Positions 1,006 to 16,617 of a stretch of DNA of 17,536 nt are shown one piece after another. Source of the DNA: a virus; UHGV virus genome UHGV-1676750; one strand, given 5' to 3'. Under the pieces are notes generated by a model. That model was not told the DNA's origin. It ran no database searches and was given only the letters and a program-made list of their open reading frames with translations. Positions within the stretch are counted from its first letter, which is position 1; each line of letters begins with the position of its first letter. A program made the position numbers and the translations under genes.

Positions 1006-1833
1006 ATGGAATATAGAACTGCGGACGCTCTTTGTGGTGTTTACAAAATTACTAACATTATTAATTGGAAAGTTTATATTGGACAGAGTATTAACATAAT
1101 GGTTAGATGGAAAGAACATGTTAATGCTTTAAATAGAAATGGTAGTAGTTGTACACTTTTACAACGGGCATGGAATAAATATGGGCAAGAGAATTTTTCT
1201 TTTGAGATTTTAGAGTTATGTTCTGAAGATATGTTGGACGAGATTGAAGTAAAATATATAGAAATATATGGTGCGTGCAACCCGAAGAAGGGTTATAATA
1301 TCGAATCTGGTGGTAATAAAAATAAGCATTTGTCAGAGGAGACAAAACAAAAACTTAGAGAAGCACATCTTGGGAAAACTATGTCTCCAGAAACCTCACA
1401 GAAAATGTCTAAATCTAGAACTGGAGAGGGCAATGGTATGTATGGTCGGCACCACACCGAAGAGGCAAAAAAGAAAATGAGTGAAGCGAAGAAAGGCAGA
1501 CCTGGACATCCGTGTAGCGATTATGCGAGGGAACGTGCCAGACAAGCTAATTTGGGCAAGATAGTATCCGAAAGAACTTGTCAAAAGCTTAGTGAATCTC
1601 ATAAGGGGAAACCTGCACATAATAAAATTATAATACCGGTATATTGTGTTGAGTTAGATAAAGTTTTTGAATGCCCATCTGATGCAGCGAAAGATCTTAA
1701 CATTAAGAACGCAACTAACATAATGGATTGTTGTAAACACATTCGCAAGACTTGTGGTGGCTATCATTGGGAGTTTGCGTATGTAATTTACCCAGATCTA
1801 TATCCCGCAATACCTTTGACAACACAAAATTAA
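1006..1833 (+). CDS. GIY-YIG family homing endonuclease with NUMOD3-type repeats and a C-terminal NUMOD1-like DNA-binding domain (I-TevI-like, free-standing)
   Basis: N-terminal GVYKITN…KVYIGQS…RWKEH matches the GIY-YIG motif, followed by YNIESGG. Four tandem [ST]-x-E-[TA]-x-x-K-[MIL]-S-x-[AS] repeats (HLSEETKQKLREAHLGK, SPETSQKMSKSRTG, HTEEAKKKMSEAKKGR, SERTCQKLSESHKGK) fit NUMOD3. The C-terminus IPVYCVELDKVFECPSDAAKDL…GGYHWEF fits the DNA-binding tail of phage homing endonucleases. RBS GGAGGT at 991-996. Confidence 0.85.
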   Translation: MEYRTADALCGVYKITNIINWKVYIGQSINIMVRWKEHVNALNRNGSSCTLLQRAWNKYGQENFSFEILELCSEDMLDEIEVKYIEIYGACNPKKGYNIESGGNKNKHLSEETKQKLREAHLGKTMSPETSQKMSKSRTGEGNGMYGRHHTEEAKKKMSEAKKGRPGHPCSDYARERARQANLGKIVSERTCQKLSESHKGKPAHNKIIIPVYCVELDKVFECPSDAAKDLNIKNATNIMDCCKHIRKTCGGYHWEFAYVIYPDLYPAIPLTTQN

Positions 1834-4185: not shown

Positions 4186-4563
4186 ATGGAATATGAAAAT
4201 CCCTATATCGTGTATGTGAAAACCAATTCCAGCGGCTACATCACCGCCGTCAATTCCTCCGCTTTCCTGACGGACACTACGGACTGGACAGAAATCGACA
4301 GCGGCTATGGCGACAAATACCACCACGCGCAGGGAAACTACTTCCCCCAGCCAATCATCACCGACGGTGGTGCATACCGATATCGTCTGGTGGATGGAAA
4401 GCCTGTGGAATGTACCGCAGAGGAGATTGCGGAGCAGGAGGAGGCAATCAAATCTTCTATTATTACTGTACCAACTGCCGAGGAGCGCATTGCAGAGCTT
4501 GAAGCGCAGAATGAAATGTTACTTCAATGCGTACTCGAAATGAGTGAGACAGTTTATGCGTAA
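4186..4563 (+). CDS. Hypothetical protein directly downstream of the fibre gene; possible fibre-associated or chaperone-like protein (assigned by position only)
   Basis: ATG at 4186 with AGGAGG at 4174-4179. Shares the elevated G+C of the preceding fibre C-terminus. Acidic, helical-looking C-terminus. Confidence 0.55.
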   Translation: MEYENPYIVYVKTNSSGYITAVNSSAFLTDTTDWTEIDSGYGDKYHHAQGNYFPQPIITDGGAYRYRLVDGKPVECTAEEIAEQEEAIKSSIITVPTAEERIAELEAQNEMLLQCVLEMSETVYA

Positions 4564-5261: not shown

Positions 5262-6152
5262 ATGGGAAGTGCTAGTGTATCCGCACCCACAACAGAGGGG
5301 ACTGTATTTGCATCAATAAGCTGGGATACTACTCCAACAGTATCTATAAGTATAACAGGCGGATATGGAATATCATGGAGAATTAGAGGTCGCGGAACAG
5401 ATACATATGTATATTATGGTCCAACAACTTCTTCGTCTGGTACGTTTACGGCAAGTTATGGAACAAGTTATGTACTTCAAGCAGTTAGCGACGGAGGATG
5501 GAATAATACTGGTGATAGTGTATTTACCGTCACGCAAGATGTTCACACTCACTCTTATTCTTTTTATACCACTGTTGACCCAACTTGTACTGAACAAGGT
5601 TATGAGATTTGGCGTTGTAGTGGTTGTGGTGATTTAGATTATAGAAATTATACTAACGCCCTTGGACATAACACTGTCAATACTGTTGTTACCCCGACCT
5701 GTACCGAACAAGGCTATACAACTCACATTTGCTCTCGTTGCGGAGCCACCACAAGCGCTAATGATAATTATACAAGTGCATTGGGCCACAATGATGCTAA
5801 TACTGTTGTTGCTCCAACTTGCACGGAACAAGGCTACACTAAGCATATTTGTTCCCGTTGTGGAATCACTATAAGTGCTAATGATAATTACATAAATGCT
5901 CTTGGACATGCGTGGGACGATGGTGAAATTATACTAGAACCAACTTATACCGAAGATGGAATTATAAAATATTTGTGTACAAGGTGCGGCGAAACTCGTA
6001 CAGAAGCTATAGCTAAAAAAGTTGGTTCGGTGCGTATTTATAACGGTTCAACTTTTGATATTTATAGTATCTATGTACGTGGAAAAGCGCAATCATGGGA
6101 TTTATATGTGCCGTACATATATAATGGATCAAGTTGGGATTTATATAGTTAG
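5262..6152 (+). CDS. Protein with four tandem ~40-aa Cys-rich (zinc-ribbon-like) repeats; putative binding or adhesin-type structural protein
   Basis: Repeats of H-x(9-11)-PTCTEQGY-x(4)-C-[ST]-x-CG-x(10-12)-ALG; the last copy is GHAWDDGEIILEPTYTEDGIIKYLCTRCGETRTEAI. Weak RBS; a 17-codon uORF (5209-5262) overlaps the start. Confidence 0.65.
   Translation: MGSASVSAPTTEGTVFASISWDTTPTVSISITGGYGISWRIRGRGTDTYVYYGPTTSSSGTFTASYGTSYVLQAVSDGGWNNTGDSVFTVTQDVHTHSYSFYTTVDPTCTEQGYEIWRCSGCGDLDYRNYTNALGHNTVNTVVTPTCTEQGYTTHICSRCGATTSANDNYTSALGHNDANTVVAPTCTEQGYTKHICSRCGITISANDNYINALGHAWDDGEIILEPTYTEDGIIKYLCTRCGETRTEAIAKKVGSVRIYNGSTFDIYSIYVRGKAQSWDLYVPYIYNGSSWDLYS
5544..6011 (+). repeat. Four tandem ~120-bp coding repeats (Cys-rich module) inside the 5262-6152 CDS
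   Basis: Units at roughly 5544-5666, 5667-5786, 5787-5906 and 5907-6011. Units 2 and 3 are clearly similar at nucleotide level (shared …CAAGGCTA… and …GCTAATGATAATTA… stretches). Confidence 0.7.
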
Positions 6153-6163
6153 GAGGTGAATAG

Positions 6164-6880
6164 ATGCCTCAGAACATCTTTAAAATCTATGATGGTAGAA
6201 CGAACTTTTGGCAATGGGACACTAAGCAGAAATTGATTGTTTTAGATGATCGTATTACAGAAGTTCGTTTTTCTAATAGAAATATGGAACACTCAAAACG
6301 TAGACCTGTCTACACGGACAATAATGGAGTTAGAATTTGTAATGTGCCTGATGTGCTCTTGCAACTTCCTAAGAATCTTATAGCGTATGCGTGTATTAAG
6401 CAAGACGATGGGACTTGTAGCACAGTAAAAGCGGTCAAGTTTGCAGTTGCTAGACAGCCAATTCCTGCGGATTATGTGTGTGAGCAAGATGCAGTTATTG
6501 AAAACATTCTCGCAAAGATCGAGATGCTTGAGAATTTACTCAAAGAAGTTGAGTCTGGATCAAAAGAAATGAAGAAGTTCACTAGCATGGTGGAAGCTGC
6601 ACAATGGGCCAAAGAAAATGGCAACGCTGGTGACATTGTTGTCATCAAACTTGATGTAGGTTGGGTGCCTCATGTTATTGAAGACGGCAAGAGTCTAAGC
6701 GCTATTTGCAACTGTGATGGCGATGAGATTGTTCTTCAGCTCGACGGAGATGACCCCGACGGCATTAATGAAGACGAAGAAGATATGGTTCTGTATTATG
6801 ACGGTAATTATATTGACGAAAGTAACGATGTAATTCAGTATTTTGATGGCGGTTCCGCATCTGGTTTACAAACGGGGTGA
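6164..6880 (+). CDS. Hypothetical phage protein (238 aa) with an acidic C-terminus
   Basis: ATG at 6164 with AGGAGGTGA at 6151-6159. No named motif. Confidence 0.7.
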   Translation: MPQNIFKIYDGRTNFWQWDTKQKLIVLDDRITEVRFSNRNMEHSKRRPVYTDNNGVRICNVPDVLLQLPKNLIAYACIKQDDGTCSTVKAVKFAVARQPIPADYVCEQDAVIENILAKIEMLENLLKEVESGSKEMKKFTSMVEAAQWAKENGNAGDIVVIKLDVGWVPHVIEDGKSLSAICNCDGDEIVLQLDGDDPDGINEDEEDMVLYYDGNYIDESNDVIQYFDGGSASGLQTG

Positions 6881-6884
6881 GAGA

Positions 6885-7244
6885 ATGGCCGATATAAGAA
6901 AAGTAAAAACTGTATTTCAAATCAGGCGCTCGACGACTGCGGAATGGGAAGCGAATAAAGATGCAATTCCTGATGCCGGAGAGCCCTGTTTTGATTTAGA
7001 CTTTGGTATATTAAAAATTGGTGATGGAAAGACCGCTTATAAAGACCTCAAGATTATTGGTGCTGGCGCTTCAATATCTGACGATGGTCTTTATTTAATT
7101 GTTGATAATTTGCAGAAAGATATCGATGAATTAAAGATCCGCATTGAAAATATTTCTGTTGAAGATCAAATTAATGATGCTATGAGCGATATTGTGGATG
7201 ACTCAGAATTACAGCAAACTCTGGATTCTGTGTTAAATAATTAA
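6885..7244 (+). CDS. Short fibre paralogue: HylP-like N-terminal attachment domain plus a short helical tail (possibly a truncated or minimal fibre)
   Basis: MADIRKVKTVFQIRRSTTAEWEANKDAIPDAGEPCFDLDFGILKIGDGKTAYKDLKIIG matches the conserved N-terminus of Gram-positive phage fibre/hyaluronidase (HylP) proteins: FQ/K-R-R…AEW…GE…D…KIGDG…Y…L. Confidence 0.7.
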   Translation: MADIRKVKTVFQIRRSTTAEWEANKDAIPDAGEPCFDLDFGILKIGDGKTAYKDLKIIGAGASISDDGLYLIVDNLQKDIDELKIRIENISVEDQINDAMSDIVDDSELQQTLDSVLNN

Positions 7245-7263
7245 GTTAAAGGAAGTGATGAAA

Positions 7264-8679
7264 ATGGCAATTAAAAAAATCAAGACATTGTTCCAACTCC
7301 GCAGGGGAACCACTGCCGAATGGGAACTCAATAAATCCGTAGTTCCCGCCGCTGGTGAACCGTGTTTTGATCTAGACCTTGGTACACTCAAAATTGGCGA
7401 CGGCGTTAAAACCTATGAGCAATTAGATGTAATTGGCGGCGGCAATGTAGCGCTTTCTGCCGATGGCAAGTCTATCATTTTGGATGACGGCATTTTTAAG
7501 CTTGCTGGTTTTGCCGATGCTGAAACTGGTGCTCAGCCTCGCAAGAACGCCGACGGCAATATTGAGTGGGTTGTACCTTCTAGCGAAACTCTTGATGGTC
7601 TACAGACAATTGTCGCTGGTTTACAAACTGACGTTACTGGATTGCAAACTAGCGTTGCTAGTATTCAGGAGGTTCTAGCTCCATCCGATGAAGGTGCAAT
7701 GACTCTACTAGAGAGAGTTGCCGCAATTGAGGGTAAGGTTGGCGAAAGCTCTGTTGATGAAAAAATTAACACTGCCTTTGACGACTTTATGGCAAAAGTT
7801 TCTGATGATGGCATCGTCAATACTGTCAAAGAACTAATTGACTATGTAGCAGACCATGCGCCCGAGGCCGCTCAGATGGCCGCTGATATTACTAGTCTGC
7901 AAGAACTTGTTGGTAACACCTCTGTTGATGCCCAAATTCTAGCTGCCATTACTACAAGCGAAGCAAAAACCGCTGCTCTTTACAAGAAAGTAAAATATGA
8001 GATTTCTTCTAAGCCCGCCGAAGCTTTAGTGGACTATAGAGAGAAAGAAATCAGAATTATGTGTCCCGCTGATACTCAATTTGAGCTTCAGAATGTTGGT
8101 CCTACTGGTGATTCTACTAGATACTATATTGGATTTAAGGCATATGCCCCTGATGGCGCTGTAAGCTTTAAGGAAGATACTAAGGCTACCATTGAAGATA
8201 CTACTATGTATTACTTTGAAGGCAATGATTTTGCTGGCACTGATGCTTATGGTCGTAAGTATAGTATTGTATGGCTACCTGTGGCAAAGCATAATGATGA
8301 TGATACTTGGACTTATTATGGTACTAATTCTAGTGCTGCCAAGTATATTGGCTGGTACTACTCTGTCGAGTGGTATGGTGCTAATGGTAAGGTTATTGCG
8401 TCTGATATCATTCGTATTAATCTAAGTAATGAGGCTTGCCATAATGTGGTTGAGCCTTATTTTATGGGCCAAGTTGTTAAGGGAGTTAGCGTTGGTGGAA
8501 CTCTGCTTGATTTGATTGACAATAAGGTTAATATTAATGCCAGTGATATTGTTAAAGGGTCTGATGAAATTGCGGTTGCTGAGGACGGGACTCTAAGCAT
8601 TGGCCAAATTAATGTGTCCAAGCTGGTGCAGGATGAAGGCTCCGAGCTAGTCTTTGATGGCGGCGGGGCTTCTAGATAA
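7264..8679 (+). CDS. Tail-fibre protein with a HylP-like N-terminal domain, GLQTxVx heptad repeats and VGxxSVD-x-x-I modules
   Basis: ATG at 7264, 8 nt after AAAGGAAG. N-terminus TLFQLRRGTTAEWELNKSVVPAAGEPCFDLDLGTLKIGDGVKTYEQL. Three 21-bp tandem heptad repeats at 7597-7659. Contains LVGNTSVDAQILAAI and KVGESSVDEKINTAF. Confidence 0.8.
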   Translation: MAIKKIKTLFQLRRGTTAEWELNKSVVPAAGEPCFDLDLGTLKIGDGVKTYEQLDVIGGGNVALSADGKSIILDDGIFKLAGFADAETGAQPRKNADGNIEWVVPSSETLDGLQTIVAGLQTDVTGLQTSVASIQEVLAPSDEGAMTLLERVAAIEGKVGESSVDEKINTAFDDFMAKVSDDGIVNTVKELIDYVADHAPEAAQMAADITSLQELVGNTSVDAQILAAITTSEAKTAALYKKVKYEISSKPAEALVDYREKEIRIMCPADTQFELQNVGPTGDSTRYYIGFKAYAPDGAVSFKEDTKATIEDTTMYYFEGNDFAGTDAYGRKYSIVWLPVAKHNDDDTWTYYGTNSSAAKYIGWYYSVEWYGANGKVIASDIIRINLSNEACHNVVEPYFMGQVVKGVSVGGTLLDLIDNKVNINASDIVKGSDEIAVAEDGTLSIGQINVSKLVQDEGSELVFDGGGASR

Positions 8680-10664: not shown

Positions 10665-10686
10665 TTTTATAGCCTAATTCTAAGCA

Positions 10687-10717
10687 AGTTGCCTCGTTAT
10701 TCGTAACGGGGCAACTT
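10687..10717 (+). promoter_or_regulatory. Intergenic hairpin without a U-tract (RNA structure or processing/regulatory element)
   Basis: AAGTTGCCTCG (10687-10697) pairs with CGGGGCAACTT (10707-10717): 11-bp stem with one G-U wobble and a 10-nt loop. No T-run follows. Confidence 0.35.
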
Positions 10718-10743
10718 CAATAAGAAAGGATGAGGACTTCTTT

Positions 10744-11589
10744 ATGCCAAATAAAGAAATATTGGCCCGTGTCAAGCAAAAAAGAGATACGAGCGCTAAC
10801 TGGGAAGCACGAAATCCAGTTATTTTAAATGGCGAGATTATTCTCGTAGATACCAACGCAGGCGAGCTTAGAGCTAAAATTGGCGATGGTACAAAAACGT
10901 ATACTCAGCTACCTTTTTCAGATGAAGCTTTAAGAAGCCTCATCAATGCAAATAAGGTTACGGTAGATAGTGCGCTGTCTTCTACTAGTACCAATCCTGT
11001 ACAGAATAAAATTGTAAACGCCGCCATTAGCAACTTGAATACTTTGGTTGGTGATACCTCTATATCTTCTCAAATCGAAACTGCTGTTGCTTCAAAGCTC
11101 GACGCCGCAGATGCGACTTGGGCTCAGATTTATGATTCTGGCGCAATTACATCAGAAGTAAACTCTATTGCGGGCATTGATATCACAGGTTATAAGAGTC
11201 TAATGGTTGCTGTTAAGTGTGTAAACACTACGAATACCGCCAGTACAAGAGCTGGTGCGGTAATTTTTACTGGCAATAATCAAGACTATGCGTTTAATAA
11301 TCTTTTTAGCAACCTGATTAAAAATGGTACAACAACTTCCGGTGCTATGGCTAAATTTAAGATCGTGGACGGTTTTATTATTTGTGAGACTGCTATGAGA
11401 GCAATTACTGCGGATGGCATTTTATCTGATGCCGAAGGGGTAGGAATTGATACATTAGCCCCAGTAAGTAGTGGTCTTATTAAGTGTACAAACGCAGTCA
11501 CTACAATGGCCGTTTCTAGTGCGGCTCAGTCTGCAGACCATTACTACGGTGTTGGTAGTAGAGTTATTGTTTGGGGGTGTAAGGTATAA
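10744..11589 (+). CDS. Tail-fibre protein with a HylP-like N-terminal domain and one VGDT module
   Basis: N-terminus ILARVKQKRDTSANWEARNPVILNGEIILVDTNAGELRAKIGDGTKTYTQLPF. Contains LVGDTSISSQIETAVASKL. Confidence 0.8.
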   Translation: MPNKEILARVKQKRDTSANWEARNPVILNGEIILVDTNAGELRAKIGDGTKTYTQLPFSDEALRSLINANKVTVDSALSSTSTNPVQNKIVNAAISNLNTLVGDTSISSQIETAVASKLDAADATWAQIYDSGAITSEVNSIAGIDITGYKSLMVAVKCVNTTNTASTRAGAVIFTGNNQDYAFNNLFSNLIKNGTTTSGAMAKFKIVDGFIICETAMRAITADGILSDAEGVGIDTLAPVSSGLIKCTNAVTTMAVSSAAQSADHYYGVGSRVIVWGCKV

Positions 11590-11963
11590 TGGCAAATAAA
11601 ACAATTACAGCATGGGTAAATGGTGCAGTTCAGTCAATTAGTGTTCCAGACGTGGCATATACTGCTCCTAAAGTTACCATTGAGGACAAGGTTAGTGCTC
11701 TTATTGCTACAGTGACACTGCCAGTCGCTGATTGGGCGGGTTCAGCAAGTCCGTATTATCAGACGATAGACTCTAATATTTTTACCGCCAATAGTATGGT
11801 TGATTTACAGCCAACCCCTGAGCAGCTTGCGGAATGGCAAGATGATGGACTGGCTTTTAGCACCACAAATGATAATGGAGTGGTGAAGGTATATGTTGCT
11901 GGTGGTGTACCTGCTGCCGATATTACTGTACAGATTAAGGTACAGGAGGTGGTTGTCATATGA
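11589..11963 (+). CDS. Hypothetical protein carrying a ~85-aa domain that is also present at the C-terminus of the 16021-16617 product
   Basis: TAATG overlap with the upstream gene. TLPVADWAGSASPYYQT…DITVQIKVQEV parallels TIPVNWVGTSAPYTQD…EVPIQVEVI in 16021-16617. Confidence 0.7.
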   Translation: MANKTITAWVNGAVQSISVPDVAYTAPKVTIEDKVSALIATVTLPVADWAGSASPYYQTIDSNIFTANSMVDLQPTPEQLAEWQDDGLAFSTTNDNGVVKVYVAGGVPAADITVQIKVQEVVVI

Positions 11964-12451
11964 TATATGGCAATGCAACTGGTGGCTTTGGAATGCCAAA
12001 GTCATTTGTTTTAACAGATGATAGTGGAAATGAAATGACAGGGGTTGTAACTGGTGAACAAGTTGTATTTACAGCTGGTTTAAGCGATATTAGAGCGGGT
12101 AAGGTTGCAGCCAATGCAGATGGTATTGTTACTGGTACGAAAGATATACCAGCATATCATACTACAGAAGGTCATCGAGTAATTACACCTGGAAGTGATT
12201 GTAAAATCTATATTCCTAATTACGAATATACCGGTTTACAAGCTATAGTTTGTTCATACAATACCTCTTTAGATGATAGTGTTGCCGCTAATCAAGTTGC
12301 CATTAAAGGCAATTTATATAATGTACAATCTGTAGACATATTATCTATAATTAGTATAGATAATACAGATCAGTGTATTAATTTAGGGATTACAAACACA
12401 ACTGATAATTTATTAATTATTAGATATTTTAGTTATAAGGAGATTTTATGA
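11960..12451 (+). CDS. Hypothetical protein (163 aa), Gly/Thr-rich N-terminus
   Basis: ATGA overlap with the upstream gene; AGGAGGT at 11944-11950. AT-rich (about 22% G+C counted for 12301-12360). Confidence 0.7.
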   Translation: MIYGNATGGFGMPKSFVLTDDSGNEMTGVVTGEQVVFTAGLSDIRAGKVAANADGIVTGTKDIPAYHTTEGHRVITPGSDCKIYIPNYEYTGLQAIVCSYNTSLDDSVAANQVAIKGNLYNVQSVDILSIISIDNTDQCINLGITNTTDNLLIIRYFSYKEIL

Positions 12452-12690
12452 TGGAAACGAGACGTTATGCATATAATTTTGCAGAAATTGATAATGCCAC
12501 TAATATGTGTATTGGTGTTATAACTACTACAGATCCAAACACAGAAGGTCCAACTGGTGGTGGAACAACTTTTGTTGCAATTCCAGTATATGATGAGAAT
12601 TATTCTTTAAAATATTACAATTGGGATAATGGTAAATTTTATTATGACTCTGCGTATACACAGGAGTACATTTCTCCATTACTACAATAA
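12448..12690 (+). CDS. Hypothetical small protein (80 aa)
   Basis: ATGA overlap with the upstream gene (translational coupling). No named motif. Confidence 0.6.
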   Translation: MMETRRYAYNFAEIDNATNMCIGVITTTDPNTEGPTGGGTTFVAIPVYDENYSLKYYNWDNGKFYYDSAYTQEYISPLLQ

Positions 12691-12712
12691 TTAAACAAAG
12701 GGGCGACGGATT

Positions 12713-12883
12713 ATGAATAAATATTTCTATTGTTATAGCTATCCATTAAAAGAATTTTTCAAAAAAAACGGCTTAAGTTACATTACCGCCGCTACGAATC
12801 ATTCAACAAATAAAACGTATTGGTTGTTTGAAGGATCTGAAAAATTAAATATGTTATTACAAAAATGGCGTTTAAATAAATAA
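12713..12883 (+). CDS. Unannotated small ORF (56 aa), hypothetical; absent from the ORF track because it is under 60 aa
   Basis: ATG at 12713 preceded by AAAGGGG. Translates to MNKYFYCYSYPLKEFFKKNGLSYITAATNHSTNKTYWLFEGSEKLNMLLQKWRLNK. Contains an A8 run at 12761-12768. The stop codon is embedded in the hairpin at 12862-12893. Confidence 0.4.
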   Translation: MNKYFYCYSYPLKEFFKKNGLSYITAATNHSTNKTYWLFEGSEKLNMLLQKWRLNK

Positions 12884-12900
12884 ACGTCATTTTCTATTTT
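12862..12900 (+). terminator. Candidate AT-rich intrinsic terminator
   Basis: AAAATGGCGTTT (12862-12873) pairs with AAACGTCATTTT (12882-12893): 12-bp stem with one G-U wobble and an 8-nt loop, followed by CTATTTT. The stem is AT-rich, hence modest stability. Confidence 0.4.
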
Positions 12901-12928
12901 ACAAATGATGTTTTGGAGGTAACTAAAG

Positions 12929-14266
12929 ATGAAGAAGTTGACGCATGAAGAATTTATTGAGAAAGTAACGAAACTCAACGAACATGTTGCAAATGGTGAG
13001 ATAGAAATATTAAGTCAGTATATAAACCAAAGAACTAAAATTAAATGTAAATGTGCCATACATAATACTATATGGGAGAGATCGGTACAAAGCCTTTACG
13101 AAAATAGTGGTTGTGAAGATTGTAAATATGAATTAAGTGGAAGAAAAAGACGGTTTTCACATGAAGAATTTGTTGAAAAGATAAAGGTTTTAAATGATGA
13201 AATTATAGTTTTGGGACATTATACAACGATGAATAAATCAATTGAATTTCAATGTAAATTTGGTCATATATGGACAGCCAAGCCTTATAGCATTATCAAT
13301 GGGCATCAATGTCCATATTGTGCTGGGCAAAAACCTATAATTGGGAATAATGACTTATGGACAACAAGACCAGACGTTGCAAGTTTATTAAAAAATCGTG
13401 ATGACGGATATGGTTTGATGGAATTTAGTCAGCGTAAAGTAATATTTATTTGTCCAACATGCGGTAACGAAATCATAAAATCAGTTCAACGTGTATCAAT
13501 AGATGGGCTTGTTTGCCAAAGATGTTCTGATGGTGTATCATATCCGAATAAATTTGCAAGAGCATTTTTAAATCAACTACTTGGTAATAATTTTAAATGT
13601 GAGTATCAACCTGATTGGGCCAAACCATATTATTATGATAATTATTTTGAATATGGTAATAAGAAATATATTTTGGAGATGGATGGCAGTTTTCATTATA
13701 TTTCAAGACAGTTGACCAAACAGTCTCTTGATGAACGAAAAAGGATTGATGCATTAAAAGATAAACTTGCTGAGCAACATAATATTCGTGTTATTCGTAT
13801 AGAGTGTATAAAATCTAATTGTAATTACATAAAGAATAACATTTTACAATCCGAGTTGAGTTTAGTTTTTAATTTATCTAAGATTAATTGGGATTTATGC
13901 GACCAAATGGCGCAAAGAAGTTTGGTTAAAGATGTTTGTAATTTATATATGAACGGAATAAAAGATTTGCATAAAATAGCAGAAATATTGCATATTAGCA
14001 AAAGTACGGTATATGTATATTTGGTTAGAGGTTCTAAGTTTGGATGGTGTGATTACGATGGGAAGAATGCTCATTACTTGAAAATTTCTATTCCAATAAT
14101 TGTACTTGATGAAAATAACAATGCTATACATAAGTTTGATAGTATTAGTGCGTGCAAAGAAGAGATGAAAAAAATGTACGGATATTCATTTGATAGAAAT
14201 ACTTTGAAAAAAGCTTGTGAGTATTCTATTTCATATCATGGATTTAACTTTAAATATGCGTATTAA
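12929..14266 (+). CDS. Multi-domain homing-endonuclease-like protein: tandem zinc-ribbon modules, a Vsr/DUF559-like PD-(D/E)xK nuclease core, a helix-turn-helix and a NUMOD1-like C-terminal DNA-binding domain
   Basis: Two ~60-aa repeats ([TS]HEEF[IV]EK…LN…C-x-x-H…W…G-x-x-C-x-x-C) and a third CPTCG…CQRCS module. KKYILEMDGSFHYI…DERKRIDALKDKLAEQHNIRVIRIE resembles the DUF559/Vsr-like endonuclease motif. KIAEILHISKSTVYVYL is HTH-like. The C-terminus IPIIVLDENNNAIHKFDSISACKEEM…YHGFNFKY parallels the C-terminus of the GIY-YIG protein. Very AT-rich. RBS GGAGGT at 12915-12920. Confidence 0.65.
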   Translation: MKKLTHEEFIEKVTKLNEHVANGEIEILSQYINQRTKIKCKCAIHNTIWERSVQSLYENSGCEDCKYELSGRKRRFSHEEFVEKIKVLNDEIIVLGHYTTMNKSIEFQCKFGHIWTAKPYSIINGHQCPYCAGQKPIIGNNDLWTTRPDVASLLKNRDDGYGLMEFSQRKVIFICPTCGNEIIKSVQRVSIDGLVCQRCSDGVSYPNKFARAFLNQLLGNNFKCEYQPDWAKPYYYDNYFEYGNKKYILEMDGSFHYISRQLTKQSLDERKRIDALKDKLAEQHNIRVIRIECIKSNCNYIKNNILQSELSLVFNLSKINWDLCDQMAQRSLVKDVCNLYMNGIKDLHKIAEILHISKSTVYVYLVRGSKFGWCDYDGKNAHYLKISIPIIVLDENNNAIHKFDSISACKEEMKKMYGYSFDRNTLKKACEYSISYHGFNFKYAY

Positions 14267-14336
14267 CAATACAAAATTAATGTTTAAAGTAATTAGTGAA
14301 ATAATAAAGTCTAAAATACTAAGGAGGAGTTTATAT

Positions 14337-15557
14337 ATGTCTAACCCCAATTTCAATCCTACGTATAGCTCGAACTTAATTTGGAGAGATGAAGACGACA
14401 CTCGTTGTATTACTGATGACCTAGATAATATCGAATCCGACATCACTGCACTCGAAACAGGCAAGGCCGACACTAACCATACACATACCGGATATGCTAC
14501 TACAGATCACACTCATACAGGCTACGCCGCAGCAGATCATACCCACACTGGCTATGCGGCGGCTGCAGACGTAACTACACTACAAAATTTGGTTGGAGAC
14601 ACTAGTGTATCTTCTCAGATCAGTACGGCTATTGCGGGCAAGGTTGATGCTGTGGAAGGTAAAGGCTTGTCTACCAATGACTATACGACAGCCGAGAAGA
14701 ATAAGCTTACTGGAATTGATACAGGAGCTAACAATTATGTGCTTCCAACTGCAAGCAGCACTACTCTTGGCGGTATTAAAACTGGGGATAACATTACTAA
14801 TTCGTCTGGTACGATTAGTCTAACAAAAAGCAATGTCACGTCAGCTTTAGGATATACTCCATTTGGCAGTAGTACGTTGTCAATGGCCAATGGTGGTACT
14901 GGCAGCGCTCAGGTTGTTAATGCTCCAAAGAATGCCATATTGAAGAAGGCAAACGATGGGAACTATGTGTGGTATACTCAGACAAAAAGTGGGGCTTTCT
15001 ACGCTACTGCAACAGATGGAGTTCCGAAATTCGGTGTACTGCCCAAGGCATTAGGTGGCACAGGTGCGGATTTCAGTAATATTCCAGCTAATGCTATTAT
15101 TCGTAATTCTGGTTCTGGCGGTAGTGACTTGTACTATTTTGCAACTGGCAATGGGGCATGCTATGCCACATCAGCTAATGGGTATCCGACTTTTGGTACA
15201 TTGCCCGTAGCGCAAGGTGGCACTGGCGAAACTACTGCTTGGACAAATGGTACAGTTACGAGTTTGAATAGTACTACTATTACATCATACCAATTTGCTG
15301 TTTTCCCCTATTTAAATAAGGCATTTATTAGGCTTAATGTGCTATTAGGTAGTGCTTTAGATGCTGACGAAGCTAGATATATAGTAATGCCGTCAACTGT
15401 TGCAACTGCACATACTGCTTTGTCTTGCTTTAATATTGCTGGATATGATATTCATTGTGGTATGGCTAGCGATAGTGGCATTTATGTAATTAATTGTGGT
15501 ACTGCTTCAATGCCCAATACTGTACGTCTTTATATTGCGGGATGGTATTCAATCTAA
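14337..15557 (+). CDS. Tail-fibre protein with an HTHTGYA triple repeat, one VGDT module and repeated GGTG motifs
   Basis: ATG at 14337 with AAGGAGG at 14321-14327; the track ORF from 14217 overlaps the upstream gene and lacks an RBS. Contains NHTHTGYATTDHTHTGYAAADHTHTGYAAA, LVGDTSVSSQISTAIAGKV, and three L-x-x-x-GGTG motifs (MANGGTGSA, PKALGGTGAD, PVAQGGTGET). Confidence 0.8.
   Translation: MSNPNFNPTYSSNLIWRDEDDTRCITDDLDNIESDITALETGKADTNHTHTGYATTDHTHTGYAAADHTHTGYAAAADVTTLQNLVGDTSVSSQISTAIAGKVDAVEGKGLSTNDYTTAEKNKLTGIDTGANNYVLPTASSTTLGGIKTGDNITNSSGTISLTKSNVTSALGYTPFGSSTLSMANGGTGSAQVVNAPKNAILKKANDGNYVWYTQTKSGAFYATATDGVPKFGVLPKALGGTGADFSNIPANAIIRNSGSGGSDLYYFATGNGACYATSANGYPTFGTLPVAQGGTGETTAWTNGTVTSLNSTTITSYQFAVFPYLNKAFIRLNVLLGSALDADEARYIVMPSTVATAHTALSCFNIAGYDIHCGMASDSGIYVINCGTASMPNTVRLYIAGWYSI
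14475..14564 (+). repeat. Three tandem 30-bp coding repeats, each encoding [ND]HTHTGYA-x-x
   Basis: aaccatacacataccggatatgctactaca / gatcacactcatacaggctacgccgcagca / gatcatacccacactggctatgcggcggct. Confidence 0.75.
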
Positions 15558-15571
15558 GGAGGATGATATAT

Positions 15572-15940
15572 ATGAAAATTCTACTTGATGAAAATAATTA
15601 TCTGACTTGTATTTGTATTGATGCTGAATTAGAGAATGGTATAGAAGTAGAAACCCCAGATGACATTGATGCTTTTATTGACGTATTTAGGGCGTATAAG
15701 TATGAAGATGGCAAATTGATTTTAGATGAAGCAAGATTGGATAAGTTGAACAATGAACGTTTAGCAGATGAATTACGTCATAAGCGTGAGAAAAAATGTT
15801 TTCCTATTATTAATCGTGGGGCACTTTGGTACAATCATCTGTCTGGGCAACAAAGAGCCGAGCTGGATGTGTGGTATCAGGCATGGCTTAATGTTACTGA
15901 GACGAAAGTTGAGCCTGAAACGCCTGAGTGGTTAAAATAA
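15572..15940 (+). CDS. Hypothetical protein directly downstream of the fibre gene; possible fibre-associated or assembly protein (assigned by position only)
   Basis: ATG at 15572 with AAGGAGG at 15556-15562. Trp-rich C-terminus (…DVWYQAWLNVTETKVEPETPEWLK). Confidence 0.6.
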   Translation: MKILLDENNYLTCICIDAELENGIEVETPDDIDAFIDVFRAYKYEDGKLILDEARLDKLNNERLADELRHKREKKCFPIINRGALWYNHLSGQQRAELDVWYQAWLNVTETKVEPETPEWLK

Positions 15941-16020: not shown

Positions 16021-16617
16021 TTGCCAACTGTAAGAGTTAAAATTGGAGACGAATGGGTAGCCACTTCTGGAGAGCCAGGTGATCGTGGCTTTGCCTTTAC
16101 ATATGACGACTTTACTCCAGAACAACTTGCTGAATTAAAAGGTGATAGAGGAGAGCCTGCGACTCTTCAAAGTGCAGAGATAACTTATCAGATCGGAACC
16201 TCCGGCACGACTGCACCGACTGGTGAGTGGAGTGTGGATATTCCCGATGTTCCACAAGGTCAATATTTATGGACTCGTAAAATTGTTCAATTTAATAGTG
16301 GTGATCCTATAACTGAGTACAGCGTATCTTATATTGGGATTGACGGAGATCGTACTGTTTATTCTGCTACAATTCCTGTAAATTGGGTTGGTACAAGCGC
16401 ACCTTATACTCAGGATGTTACAATTACTGGTATTTTAGTAACCGATACACCACATGTTATACCAGTTTATTCTGAGGATATAAGCACCACTCTTTCTCAA
16501 ATGGAAGCGTGGTCAATGGTTAGTATGGCACAAGTAGGAGCAGATAAGATAACCTTCATTTGTTTTGAGGACAAACCTGCGGTGGAAGTGCCGATTCAAG
16601 TGGAGGTGATTAGGTAA
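16021..16617 (+). CDS. Structural protein with short collagen-like G-x-x triplets and a C-terminal domain shared with the 11589-11963 product; TTG start
   Basis: TTG at 16021, 8 nt after AAAGGAGGT (16005-16013); there is no in-frame ATG near the 5' end. Contains GEPGDRG-FAFTYDDFTPEQLAEL-KGDRGEP. Confidence 0.7.
   Translation: MPTVRVKIGDEWVATSGEPGDRGFAFTYDDFTPEQLAELKGDRGEPATLQSAEITYQIGTSGTTAPTGEWSVDIPDVPQGQYLWTRKIVQFNSGDPITEYSVSYIGIDGDRTVYSATIPVNWVGTSAPYTQDVTITGILVTDTPHVIPVYSEDISTTLSQMEAWSMVSMAQVGADKITFICFEDKPAVEVPIQVEVIR

What the first reader, a model, noticed from the sequence alone, without database searches (positions are those of the whole stretch)
11589..12900. AT-rich block of translationally coupled small genes of unknown function between fibre genes and the endonuclease
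Three genes (11589, 11960, 12448) overlap by TAATG/ATGA, then comes an unannotated 56-codon ORF (12713-12883) whose stop codon sits inside a hairpin (12862-12893). None has a motif I can name except the shared ~85-aa domain in the first. Composition is far more AT-rich than the flanking fibre genes. This looks like an accessory island whose function (assembly factors, host-interaction or anti-defence proteins) is open.
Basis: inference. Interest (0 to 1): 0.4.

Follow-up and report, generated by a model that had tools for sequence, protein, structure and literature searches.

The report
Phage fibre-tip genes plus endonuclease cassette
The three overlapping small genes are a conserved tail-fibre tip module found in every related gut phage, not an accessory island. 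The real add-on is the 56-codon gene, which arrived together with the neighbouring homing endonuclease as one mobile cassette.

Summary
The ORFs, their TAATG/ATGA overlaps, the 56-codon ORF and the hairpin over its stop codon are all real. The composition claim is only half right. gp124 is 44% GC, above the window mean of 40%. GC drops inside gp163 at about 12,000-12,150 and stays near 30% through the endonuclease to about 14,430.

The three coupled genes define three unnamed protein families, called here A2 (gp124), A1 (gp163) and A3 (gp80). They lie in the same order in all 33 related loci, from roughly 150-170 kb uncultured phages binned with gut Clostridia. A2 and A1 also occur as C-terminal domains of long fibre proteins, and A3 follows A1 everywhere.

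Pairwise-identity correlations show two co-inherited units, [A2 + N-terminal third of A1] and [C-terminal two-thirds of A1 + A3]. The junction sits where GC drops. This is the classic layout of a conserved docking part plus an exchangeable receptor-binding tip with its small partner gene, as in Mu S/U or lambda stf/tfa.

The 56-aa ORF (DUF5659-like) and the 445-aa endonuclease form a roughly 1.57 kb insertion that is absent from relatives. In 60 of 79 viral loci, homologues of the 56-aa protein sit about 36 nt upstream of a homing endonuclease. These belong to two unrelated classes, and a covarying terminator hairpin lies between the two genes.

The parts
10744..11589 (+). Fibre gene (281 aa) with an Mtd_N-like N-terminus. 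It is the upstream partner of the module, and its stop overlaps the gp124 start (TAATG).
   Evidence: Pfam Mtd_N E = 1.2e-5. PHROG tail assembly/tail fibre families at 4e-11 and 1e-6. In relatives its N-terminal part is fused to the A2 domain in a single 293-296 aa protein (L012, L020, L029).
11589..11963 (+). gp124, family 'A2'. A free-standing copy of a domain that in many relatives is the C-terminal domain of 212-514 aa fibre proteins. Predicted N-terminal beta-hairpin (residues 3-20), variable linker, and beta-sandwich (residues 38-120).
11960..12157 (+). gp163 N-terminal third ('A1-N', residues 1-66, ending in the conserved KDIPAY). A conserved docking part that is co-inherited with A2.
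   Evidence: Lowest column entropy in the protein (0.84-1.5 bits). Mantel test A2 vs A1-N: rho 0.33, p = 0.0065. It occurs fused directly to A3 (P0344, P0346, P0347) or to an unrelated C-terminus (P0341).
12158..12451 (+). gp163 C-terminal two-thirds ('A1-C'). A variable, AT-rich beta-sandwich, proposed to be the receptor-binding tip. It is co-inherited with A3.
   Evidence: AlphaFold2 pLDDT 93-98 over residues 70-160. Entropy peaks at residues 71-90 and 121-140. GC is 28% here and 26-37% in most relatives, against 36-44% for their loci. Mantel test A1-C vs A3: rho 0.51, p = 0.0005; A1-N vs A1-C: rho 0.04, not significant. The domain is always C-terminal in longer proteins of 326-755 aa that carry fibre repeats or beta-propellers.
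12448..12690 (+). gp80, family 'A3'. A small conserved protein that always follows an A1 domain. Proposed fibre-tip chaperone or cap.
   Evidence: 71 homologues of 70-80 aa with 64% mean column identity. It follows A1 in all loci, including those where A1 ends a 442- or 755-aa fibre (L043, L045). There is an in-frame A1-A3 fusion in L025. No Pfam, PDB, NCBIfam or PADLOC match.
12691..14266 (+). Inserted mobile cassette of about 1.57 kb: 56-aa gene, terminator hairpin and homing-endonuclease gene.
   Evidence: It is absent between A3 and the next fibre gene in all relatives, where the gap is only 15-110 nt. The motif TATTAACA.TA..AAATTAAT follows the A3 stop in L002 and L041, but in the window it lies at the endonuclease stop. 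GC is 29.6%. A homologous cassette sits one gene further downstream in L046.
12713..12883 (+). 56-aa ORF: a DUF5659-like small protein (phrog_21297), the 5' gene of the endonuclease cassette.
   Evidence: phrog_21297 E = 2e-15; DUF5659 at 18.2 bits, below the 23.6-bit cut-off. A homologue, L039, passes at 24.7 bits. Nine residues are invariant among five distant homologues. In 60 of 79 IMG/VR loci it lies immediately upstream of an endonuclease gene.
12862..12893 (+). Intrinsic-terminator-like hairpin enclosing the stop codon of the 56-aa ORF, followed by a T-rich tail.
   Evidence: 13-bp stem, 6-nt loop, tail CTATTTT. An equivalent hairpin is present in 21 of 28 distinct endonuclease-linked homologues and in 0 of 7 homologues without an endonuclease. 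In 12 uninterrupted stems, 133 of 134 pairs are canonical, and 3-5 pair types occur at four or more stem positions.
12929..14266 (+). 445-aa free-standing homing-endonuclease-like gene, with treble-clef zinc-ribbon repeats, a nuclease core and a C-terminal HTH/NUMOD1-like region.
   Evidence: phrog_559 'HNH endonuclease' 6e-44; phrog_9084 'homing endonuclease' 7e-7; Pfam DUF4379 7e-11. tblastn matches in 221 phage records, including insertions at Staphylococcus phage terminase genes.
14337..15557 (+). Next fibre gene (406 aa from the ATG at 14337). In relatives it directly follows A3.
   Evidence: GGAGG lies 8 nt upstream of the ATG at 14337. The N-terminus MSNPNF... matches that of the L002 1299-aa fibre.

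Best explanation
The finding covers two different things that lie side by side.

(1) 11589-12690 is a conserved, translationally coupled tail-fibre tip module of a large uncultured phage binned with gut Clostridia.
- gp124 (A2) is a free-standing copy of the domain that ends the fibre shaft in relatives.
- gp163 (A1) docks on A2 through its conserved N-terminal 66 residues. It presents a variable C-terminal beta-sandwich that most likely binds the host receptor.
- gp80 (A3) is the small partner of that C-terminal domain. It acts either as a folding chaperone or cap, or as a terminal structural piece.
- Recombination exchanges [A1 C-terminal domain + A3] as one unit against a constant [A2 + A1 N-terminal part]. 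This is the host-range cassette logic known from Mu S/U, P2 H/G and lambda stf/tfa. The exchangeable unit is AT-rich in most relatives, which explains the GC drop inside gp163.

(2) 12691-14266 is a free-standing homing-endonuclease cassette inserted into the short spacer between A3 and the next fibre gene.
- It consists of a DUF5659-like 56-aa gene, an intrinsic terminator that encloses that gene's stop codon, a short leader with its own ribosome-binding site, and the 445-aa endonuclease.
- The 56-aa protein is a recurrent 5' partner of homing endonucleases. My best guess is that it is a small nucleic-acid-binding regulator or helper of the element.
- The terminator keeps fibre-operon transcription from reading into the nuclease gene.

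Shown: gene order, domain fusions, co-inheritance, the insertion polymorphism, and hairpin covariation.
Inferred: receptor binding by A1-C, the chaperone or cap role of A3, the docking of A1-N on A2, and any activity of the 56-aa protein.
For: Conservation and order:
- The A2 domain, then A1, then A3 lie in that order and tightly packed in all related loci that hold them. This covers IMG/VR contigs of 36-170 kb and ENA, Logan and NCBI contigs.
- 33 loci hold all three families, and 24 of them are distinct.

Structural nature:
- A2 is the C-terminal domain of 212-514 aa fibre proteins that carry Mtd_N-type N-termini.
- A1 has 236 cluster representatives. In every longer protein it is C-terminal, for example in 442-, 462-, 533- and 755-aa proteins with fibre repeats, a classic fibre N-terminus or beta-propellers.
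- In L043 such a fibre follows a gene with a faint Phage_Wedge1 (baseplate wedge) Pfam hit and is itself followed by A3.
- Both AlphaFold2 models are confident all-beta sandwiches (pLDDT 87 and 86). Their best, though weak, structural neighbours are phage fibre and tailspike domains.

Module linkage:
- Mantel tests on 20 non-redundant loci: A1-C vs A3 rho 0.51, p = 0.0005; A2 vs A1-N rho 0.33, p = 0.0065. The other four pairs have rho from -0.06 to 0.06 and are not significant.
- The window's A1-N is 79% identical to that of L002, but its A1-C only 50%.
- Natural fusions exist: A1-A3 in L025; A1-N fused to A3 in P0344, P0346 and P0347; A1-N with a foreign C-terminus in P0341.
- A1-C has low GC in relatives that lack any endonuclease.

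Cassette:
- The 56-aa gene and the endonuclease occur at this site only in this strain's own contigs.
- The junction motif maps the insertion to the A3-fibre spacer.
- L046 has the homologous pair (66% and 42% identity) one gene further on.
- The strain variant L006 shares a 99.9% identical block, 11188-15121, around the cassette. The flanks are only 88-92% identical. This fits nuclease-associated exchange boundaries as described in PMC10055350.

Partner gene:
- In 79 IMG/VR loci with a homologue of the 56-aa protein, the next gene (median gap 36 nt) is a GIY-YIG endonuclease in 39 and an endonuclease of the window's type in 21.
- The hairpin over the stop codon is conserved, with compensatory changes.
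Against: - The Mantel correlations come from only 20 loci and cannot separate physical interaction from simple physical linkage of adjacent DNA.
- A3 is more conserved than a typical chaperone of a hypervariable tip. It also occurs as a C-terminal domain (P0344-P0347), so it could be structural.
- No empty-site allele at high identity was found. The insertion is therefore inferred from relatives that are only about 50-80% identical in protein.
- The identical block shared with L006 rests on only about 500 nt of divergent flank on each side.
- The 80 loci for the 56-aa family are redundant (59 distinct downstream proteins), and 19 have no recognisable endonuclease.
Confidence: 0.7

Rival explanations
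1. gp163 and gp80 are both non-structural assembly chaperones for the upstream fibre, in the manner of T4 gp57A/gp38 or lambda Tfa. Neither would be a virion component or a receptor binder.
For: Both are small and sit immediately downstream of fibre genes with translational coupling. No receptor-binding fold was recognised.
Against: The A1 domain is the C-terminal domain of many long fibre-like proteins of 326-755 aa. It has the conserved N-terminus and variable C-terminus typical of receptor-binding proteins. Some homologues carry N-terminal fibre-shaft-like repeats (P0035, P0062, P0285). Stand-alone chaperones are not normally found as the terminal domain of fibres, apart from cleaved intramolecular chaperones.
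Confidence: 0.12
2. gp80 (A3) is itself the distal structural tip or adhesin of the fibre, and gp163 is an adaptor. Nothing in the module would then be a chaperone.
For: A3 occurs as the C-terminal domain of 129-133 aa proteins joined directly to A1-N, and as a C-terminal fusion to full A1 in L025. It co-varies with A1-C.
Against: A3 is the most conserved of the three families (64% mean column identity), whereas adhesin tips are usually the most variable part. Its position and size match small fibre-partner genes. C-terminal fusion is also what intramolecular chaperone domains look like (PMC10579305 discusses chaperones resembling such caps).
Confidence: 0.2
3. The whole AT-rich stretch (about 12000-14430), including the 3' part of gp163 and gp80, was imported together with the endonuclease from an AT-richer donor phage by co-conversion during homing.
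For: The low-GC block is continuous across gp163-C, gp80 and the cassette. gp80 here is 32% GC, against 34-48% in relatives. The 11188-15121 block is 99.9% identical between two strains whose flanks differ by 8-12%. Co-conversion of flanks is a known property of free-standing homing endonucleases (PMC2790892 abstract; PMC2988022).
Against: A1-C is just as GC-poor (26-30%) in several relatives with no endonuclease nearby, such as L002, L008, L012, L014, L022, L026 and L027. The drop inside gp163 therefore pre-dates the cassette. The shared block with L006 starts at 11188, far upstream of the GC change point at about 12000.
Confidence: 0.2
4. The block is an accessory or moron island that encodes anti-defence or host-takeover proteins.
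For: The proteins are small, unannotated and AT-rich, and lie next to a mobile endonuclease.
Against: The three genes are invariably present and syntenic inside fibre clusters of all relatives, and are fused to fibre proteins elsewhere. PADLOC and NCBIfam give no hit.
Confidence: 0.03

Closest known systems
Mu/P1 S-U (constant Sc, variable Sv plus U), P2 H-G and lambda stf-tfa: a tail-fibre C-terminus with a downstream tail-fibre assembly gene (general knowledge; Pfam Caudo_TAP)
   Same: There is a conserved N-terminal fibre part. The variable C-terminal receptor-binding part and the small gene immediately downstream are inherited and exchanged as one unit. The recombination junction lies inside the fibre gene, and the genes are tightly coupled.
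   Different: No sequence or profile similarity to Caudo_TAP or any other named chaperone family. A3 is only 70-80 aa. No invertible segment or invertase is present. The 'fibre' here is split into several small polypeptides (281 + 124 + 163 aa). The hosts are Gram-positive Clostridia.
Alteromonas phage V22/A5 tail fibre with cognate chaperone acting as a transient 'cap' (PMC10579305); myocyanophage Pam3 fibre-chaperone pair (PMC9608196)
   Same: A small protein encoded directly after the fibre gene that travels with the fibre tip between unrelated phages. The natural fusions of A3 to A1 resemble the similarity noted there between such chaperones and intramolecular chaperone domains.
   Different: No detectable homology. 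Chaperone activity of A3 is untested. A3 is much more conserved than its fibre partner.
T4-type free-standing homing endonucleases (seg and mob genes; PMC2988022, PMC2790892) and nuclease genes at boundaries of genetic exchange (PMC10055350)
   Same: An intergenic, AT-rich endonuclease gene that is present or absent among related phages. It lies in a block of near-identity bounded by divergent sequence. Several such genes are scattered through the same gene cluster (window 1006-1833, L006, L014, L041, L046).
   Different: The nuclease is of a zinc-ribbon (DUF4379/CapR-like) type with no solved relative. It is preceded by a conserved small partner gene and a terminator. I found no paper mentioning DUF5659; whether such a partner gene is described elsewhere for homing endonucleases was not searched.
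Pfam DUF5659 / PHROG phrog_21297 (function unknown)
   Same: The 56-aa ORF matches phrog_21297 (2e-15) and aligns end to end with DUF5659. It shares invariant C, Y, S, L, G and W residues with homologues in Geobacillus virus E3 and gut phages.
   Different: It scores below the Pfam gathering cut-off (18.2 against 23.6 bits). The family has no assigned function. The link to endonuclease genes is an observation made here.

Membership tests
Tail-fibre assembly proteins (Caudo_TAP/Tfa-type) - candidate for gp80 (A3) | Sequence or profile match to the family | tested here: not met
   No Pfam family for gp80. None of the 43 family members matches a chaperone family. NCBIfam gives nothing.
Tail-fibre assembly proteins (Caudo_TAP/Tfa-type) - candidate for gp80 (A3) | Encoded immediately downstream of the fibre gene whose C-terminus it serves, and co-inherited with that C-terminus | tested here: met
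   A3 follows an A1 domain in all loci. Mantel test A1-C vs A3: rho 0.51, p = 0.0005.
Tail-fibre assembly proteins (Caudo_TAP/Tfa-type) - candidate for gp80 (A3) | Required for folding or trimerisation of the fibre tip | not testable with these tools
   Needs co-expression experiments.
Phage receptor-binding (fibre-tip) proteins - candidate for gp163 (A1) | Conserved N-terminal attachment part and variable, exchangeable C-terminal part | tested here: met
   Entropy profile. A1-N and A1-C identities are uncorrelated (rho 0.04). A1-N is found with alternative C-termini.
Phage receptor-binding (fibre-tip) proteins - candidate for gp163 (A1) | Part of virion fibre proteins | tested here: inconclusive
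Phage receptor-binding (fibre-tip) proteins - candidate for gp163 (A1) | Binds a host surface receptor | not testable with these tools
   Needs adsorption or binding assays. The host has not been cultured with this phage.
Free-standing homing endonuclease cassette (12691-14266) | Homology to endonuclease or homing-endonuclease families | tested here: met
   phrog_559 6e-44, phrog_9084 7e-7, DUF4379 7e-11. 221 phage records have relatives.
Free-standing homing endonuclease cassette (12691-14266) | Intergenic location with presence/absence polymorphism among related genomes | tested here: met
   Absent at this site in all relatives. A homologous cassette lies at a neighbouring site in L046.
Free-standing homing endonuclease cassette (12691-14266) | Site-specific cleavage of the cassette-free allele, with co-conversion of flanks | tested here: inconclusive
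   A 99.9% identical block, 11188-15121, with flanks 88-92% identical to L006 fits co-conversion. Cleavage is untestable here, and no empty allele was found.
Pfam DUF5659 - candidate for the 56-aa ORF | Score at or above the Pfam gathering cut-off | tested here: not met
   18.2 bits against 23.6. The homologue L039 scores 24.7 bits and passes. phrog_21297 matches at 2e-15. It is best called DUF5659-like.
Rho-independent terminator (12862-12893) | G+C-containing stem-loop followed by a T-tract, conserved by compensatory changes | tested here: met
   13-bp stem followed by CTATTTT. Present in 21 of 28 distinct homologous cassettes, with 133 of 134 canonical pairs and 3-5 pair types at four or more positions.
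Rho-independent terminator (12862-12893) | Terminates transcription | not testable with these tools
   Needs RNA-seq or term-seq.

The most novel reading that the evidence does not exclude
The DUF5659-like 56-aa protein and the terminator hairpin that overlaps its stop codon form a conserved 5' module of free-standing homing-endonuclease cassettes. The module is shared by at least two unrelated nuclease classes: GIY-YIG and the zinc-ribbon type found here. That would make the small protein a dedicated accessory factor of these selfish elements. It could be a regulator of nuclease expression, a protector of the carrier genome, or a homing helper. I found no paper mentioning DUF5659.
Probability: 0.35. 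Interest if true: 0.55.

Novelty: new member of a known kind. Interest (0 to 1): 0.33.

Why it matters
The phages concerned are large, uncultured, and binned with gut Clostridia. Their host-recognition genes are entirely unannotated. Three new protein families can now be labelled as a fibre-tip module, and the exchange junction is placed inside gp163. This tells anyone predicting or engineering host range in these phages which segment to compare or swap: the gp163 C-terminal domain together with gp80.

The analysis also shows that the local AT-richness is not evidence of a moron island.

Separately, a DUF5659-like gene and a covarying terminator recur in front of two classes of homing endonuclease. 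This gives a function-unknown Pfam family a concrete, testable context. It also suggests that phage homing-endonuclease cassettes can be two-gene units.

Tried and rejected
Searches that found nothing useful:
- DNA searches of GenBank phages with 10700-14400 (megablast) and 11589-12900 (blastn) found nothing.
- tblastn of gp163 and gp80 against GenBank phages found nothing. gp124 hit only two unannotated faecal contigs.
- Profile searches of PDB sequences with A1, A2, A3, the 56-aa family and the endonuclease gave no meaningful hit. A1's E = 0.001 to streptococcal antigen I/II covers only 30 residues.
- BFVD returned only uncharacterised gut-virus proteins. The afdb50 library was unavailable.
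- Pfam on 43 A3 members, NCBIfam and PADLOC gave nothing.
- Rfam and tRNA scans of the window found nothing, so there is no intron around the endonuclease.
- A search for a cassette-free allele by exact match to the gp80 3' end gave 0 hits in both metagenome and viral contigs.
- The first genome-contig scan with A1 failed for lack of conserved columns. A3 worked.
- Literature: no paper mentions DUF5659. The 'YomU tail' search returned only unrelated papers.

Analyses that did not work:
- RNAalifold on a MAFFT alignment of the hairpins returned no structure because the arms were misregistered. I replaced it with per-sequence folding and pair counting.
- Sliding DNA identity to locate the recombination breakpoint was uninformative at this divergence.

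Ideas rejected:
- AT-richness as proof of foreign origin of the three genes, because relatives without the endonuclease show the same dip.
- An anti-defence island.


Full report
**What is in the sequence**

The window is a phage structural region made almost entirely of plus-strand fibre-like genes. Several carry Mtd_N-type N-termini, and two homing-endonuclease genes are interspersed.

The ORFs named in the finding are real: 11589-11963 (124 aa), 11960-12451 (163 aa), 12448-12690 (80 aa) and 12713-12883 (56 aa).
- The first overlaps the stop of the upstream 281-aa fibre gene in TAATG.
- The next two junctions are ATGA overlaps.
- All starts have Shine-Dalgarno-like sequences.
- The stop codon of the 56-aa ORF lies in the 3' arm of a 13-bp hairpin (12862-12893) that is followed by CTATTTT.

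The composition statement is only partly right.
- gp124 is 44.0% GC and the first 190 nt of gp163 are 39.5%, against a window mean of 40.3%.
- GC falls to 28% at about 12150 and stays near 30% through gp80, the 56-aa ORF and the whole 445-aa endonuclease gene.
- The cumulative-GC change points are at about 11997 and 14436.

**The three coupled genes are conserved core genes**

Each of the three proteins has 60-70 clustered homologues in metagenomes. None carries a name or a Pfam domain. I call the families A2 (gp124), A1 (gp163) and A3 (gp80).

Contexts were fetched from ENA, Logan, NCBI and IMG/VR. In all of them the order is A2 domain, then A1, then A3, and the genes are tightly packed.
- 33 loci hold all three families, and 24 of these are distinct.
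- The contigs reach 150-170 kb. The genome bins holding relatives are gut Clostridia: Faecalimonas, Faecousia and Acutalibacteraceae.
- No cultured phage in GenBank has A1 or A3.

**They belong to the fibre**

- In many relatives the A2 domain is not a separate gene. It is the C-terminal domain of 212-514 aa proteins whose N-termini resemble the window's 281-aa fibre. gp124 is therefore a free-standing version of a fibre end domain.
- A more distant copy ends the window's own 198-aa protein at 16021-16617 (profile E = 8e-4).
- A profile search of 1.84 billion representatives found 236 A1 clusters. Wherever the protein is longer (326-755 aa), A1 is the C-terminal domain. The N-terminal parts are fibre-type repeats, a classic Gram-positive fibre N-terminus, or beta-propellers.
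- In two such contexts that were fetched, L043 and L045, an A3 gene still follows. In L043 the fibre lies directly after a gene with a faint Phage_Wedge1 (baseplate wedge) Pfam hit.

**Modular anatomy**

Column entropy in A1 is lowest in residues 41-70, around the invariant KDIPAY. It is highest in residues 71-90 and 121-140.

Natural variants show that the N-terminal 66 residues (A1-N) form a separable unit.
- P0344, P0346 and P0347 join A1-N directly to A3.
- P0341 joins A1-N to an unrelated C-terminus.
- L025 has an in-frame fusion of full A1 to A3.

I compared pairwise identities of the four pieces across 20 non-redundant loci.

| Pair | rho | p |
|---|---|---|
| A1-C vs A3 | 0.51 | 0.0005 |
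| A2 vs A1-N | 0.33 | 0.0065 |
| Other four pairs, including A1-N vs A1-C | -0.06 to 0.06 | not significant |

As an example, the window's A1-N is 79% identical to that of L002 but its A1-C only 50%.

There are thus two co-inherited units, and the recombination junction lies inside gp163 at about residue 66. That is nucleotide ~12158, exactly where GC drops. The low GC of A1-C is a family trait: 26-37% in most relatives against 36-44% for their loci, including relatives with no endonuclease nearby.

**Mechanism proposed**

The layout is a conserved docking part plus a variable C-terminal domain, with a small gene immediately downstream that travels with it. This is the host-range cassette logic of Mu S/U, P2 H/G and lambda stf/tfa (general knowledge). 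It also matches the fibre plus chaperone 'cap' pairs of Alteromonas phages (PMC10579305).

I therefore read the module as follows.
- gp124 is the end domain or adaptor of the fibre encoded at 10744.
- gp163 is the tip protein. Its N-terminal part docks on A2 and its C-terminal sandwich binds the receptor.
- gp80 is the chaperone or cap of that sandwich.

The order, fusions and co-inheritance are shown. Docking, receptor binding and chaperoning are inferred. gp80 might instead be a structural terminal piece, because it is unusually conserved (64% mean column identity) and occurs as a C-terminal domain.

**The 56-aa ORF and the endonuclease are the accessory element**

At this site both genes occur only in this strain's own contigs, L001 and L006. 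In all relatives the gene after A3 is the next fibre gene, 15-110 nt away.

The spacer motif TATTAACA.TA..AAATTAAT follows the A3 stop in L002 and L041. In the window it sits at the endonuclease stop codon, followed by the same GGAGG and MSNPNF fibre start. The insert is therefore about 12691-14266, roughly 1.57 kb at 29.6% GC.

- The 445-aa protein matches endonuclease PHROGs (6e-44) and treble-clef zinc-finger repeats. It has relatives inserted in many phages.
- A homologous cassette (56-aa protein 66% identical, endonuclease 42%) sits one gene further downstream in the related 159-kb contig L046.
- Other endonuclease genes occupy other spacers of the same cluster: window 1006-1833, L006, L014 and L041.
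- The strain variant L006 is 99.9% identical to the window over 11188-15121 but only 88-92% in the roughly 500 nt on either side. This fits exchange blocks bounded by or centred on nuclease genes (PMC10055350), but it rests on short flanks.

**A recurrent partner gene and terminator**

The 56-aa protein matches phrog_21297 (2e-15) and is DUF5659-like.

- Among GenBank phages, its homologue in a 176-kb faecal phage is followed by a homologue of the window's endonuclease, lying between a 551-aa and a 410-aa ORF that I take to be the portal and scaffold genes, from their sequence only. In Geobacillus virus E3 it is followed by a zinc-ribbon-rich 538-aa protein.
- A scan of IMG/VR gave 80 loci, of which 79 have a downstream ORF. 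That ORF begins a median of 36 nt after the homologue (gap measured over the 60 endonuclease-linked loci). It is a GIY-YIG/NUMOD1 endonuclease in 39 loci and an endonuclease of the window's class in 21.
- Fifteen of the 19 exceptions belong to one lineage.
- The upstream genes differ between loci, so the small gene travels with the nuclease, not with the target.
- The hairpin over the stop codon is part of this unit. It is present in 21 of 28 distinct endonuclease-linked sequences and in none of the 7 without an endonuclease.
- Its 5' arm contains the invariant Trp codon. In 12 uninterrupted stems, 133 of 134 pairs are canonical, with 3-5 different pair types at four or more positions.
- It is followed by a T-tract, a short recurrent leader and a GGAGG before the nuclease start.

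I read it as an intrinsic terminator that insulates the nuclease gene from upstream transcription. The role of the 56-aa protein (regulator, protector or helper) is open. I found no paper mentioning DUF5659.

**Verdict**

The interpretation as an accessory island is wrong for the three coupled genes and right for the fourth ORF.

The three genes are new, unnamed families of a familiar kind of system: a fibre-tip module with an exchangeable receptor-binding part and a partner gene. The most novel thread is the two-gene, terminator-containing architecture of the endonuclease cassette.

Overall interest is moderate to low for the finding as posed. It is somewhat higher for the endonuclease partner gene.

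Noticed in passing
window 5262-6152 (+): A 296-aa protein inside the fibre cluster has four tandem repeats of about 35 aa, 'ALGHN..NTVV.PTCTEQGYT.HICSRCG', which look like Cys4 zinc ribbons. Pfam gives only weak zinc-finger hits. This is unusual for a virion fibre-cluster gene.
   Followed up: no
window 1006-1833 (+): A second free-standing homing endonuclease (GIY-YIG + NUMOD3) lies after the 274-aa gene at 21-845. Unlike the 12929 endonuclease, it has no DUF5659-like partner upstream.
   Followed up: partly
L006 225-1358 (corresponds to an insertion at window ~10665-10675): The 98%-identical strain variant carries an extra insertion of about 1.2 kb between the 645-aa and 281-aa fibre genes. 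It holds two ORFs homologous to the window's 445-aa endonuclease, apparently a split or decaying copy.
   Followed up: partly
L046 1-4584: A related 159-kb IMG/VR contig has the homologous cassette (56-aa gene plus endonuclease) one gene further downstream, after the next fibre gene. It is preceded by its own TTGACA-N17-TATAAT promoter and an upstream hairpin.
   Followed up: partly
window 14261-14281; L002 10723-10745; L041 9116-9136: A conserved spacer motif, TATTAACA(A/G)TA(C/T)(A/G)AAATTAAT, lies between the A3 gene and the next fibre gene in distant relatives. It may be a late promoter or other regulatory site.
   Followed up: no
window 11188-15121 vs L006: A sharply bounded block of 99.9% identity (4 mismatches in 3.9 kb) lies between flanks that are 88-92% identical. 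It is centred on the endonuclease cassette.
   Followed up: partly
window 6843-7244, 7255-8679, 10744-11589: Several consecutive fibre-like genes begin with an Mtd_N-type N-terminal motif, each followed by a different C-terminus. The phage therefore seems to carry a battery of alternative or multiple fibres. Further small genes at 4186-4563 and 15569-15940 (the latter weakly DUF2977-like) follow other fibre genes.
   Followed up: no
proteins P0008, P0010, P0311, P0285, P0295 (A1 homologues): Some A1 homologues carry N-terminal domains that resemble Listeria-Bacteroides repeats (judged by eye from the sequence), WD40/PQQ propellers or BNR-like beta-propellers. This suggests the A1 tip domain is combined with other carbohydrate- or surface-binding modules.
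   Followed up: partly
window 14217-14336: The mechanical ORF list extends the 14337 fibre gene upstream to a GTG at 14217, which overlaps the endonuclease 3' end. The ATG at 14337, with GGAGG 8 nt upstream and homology to relatives' start sites, is the likely true start.
   Followed up: yes
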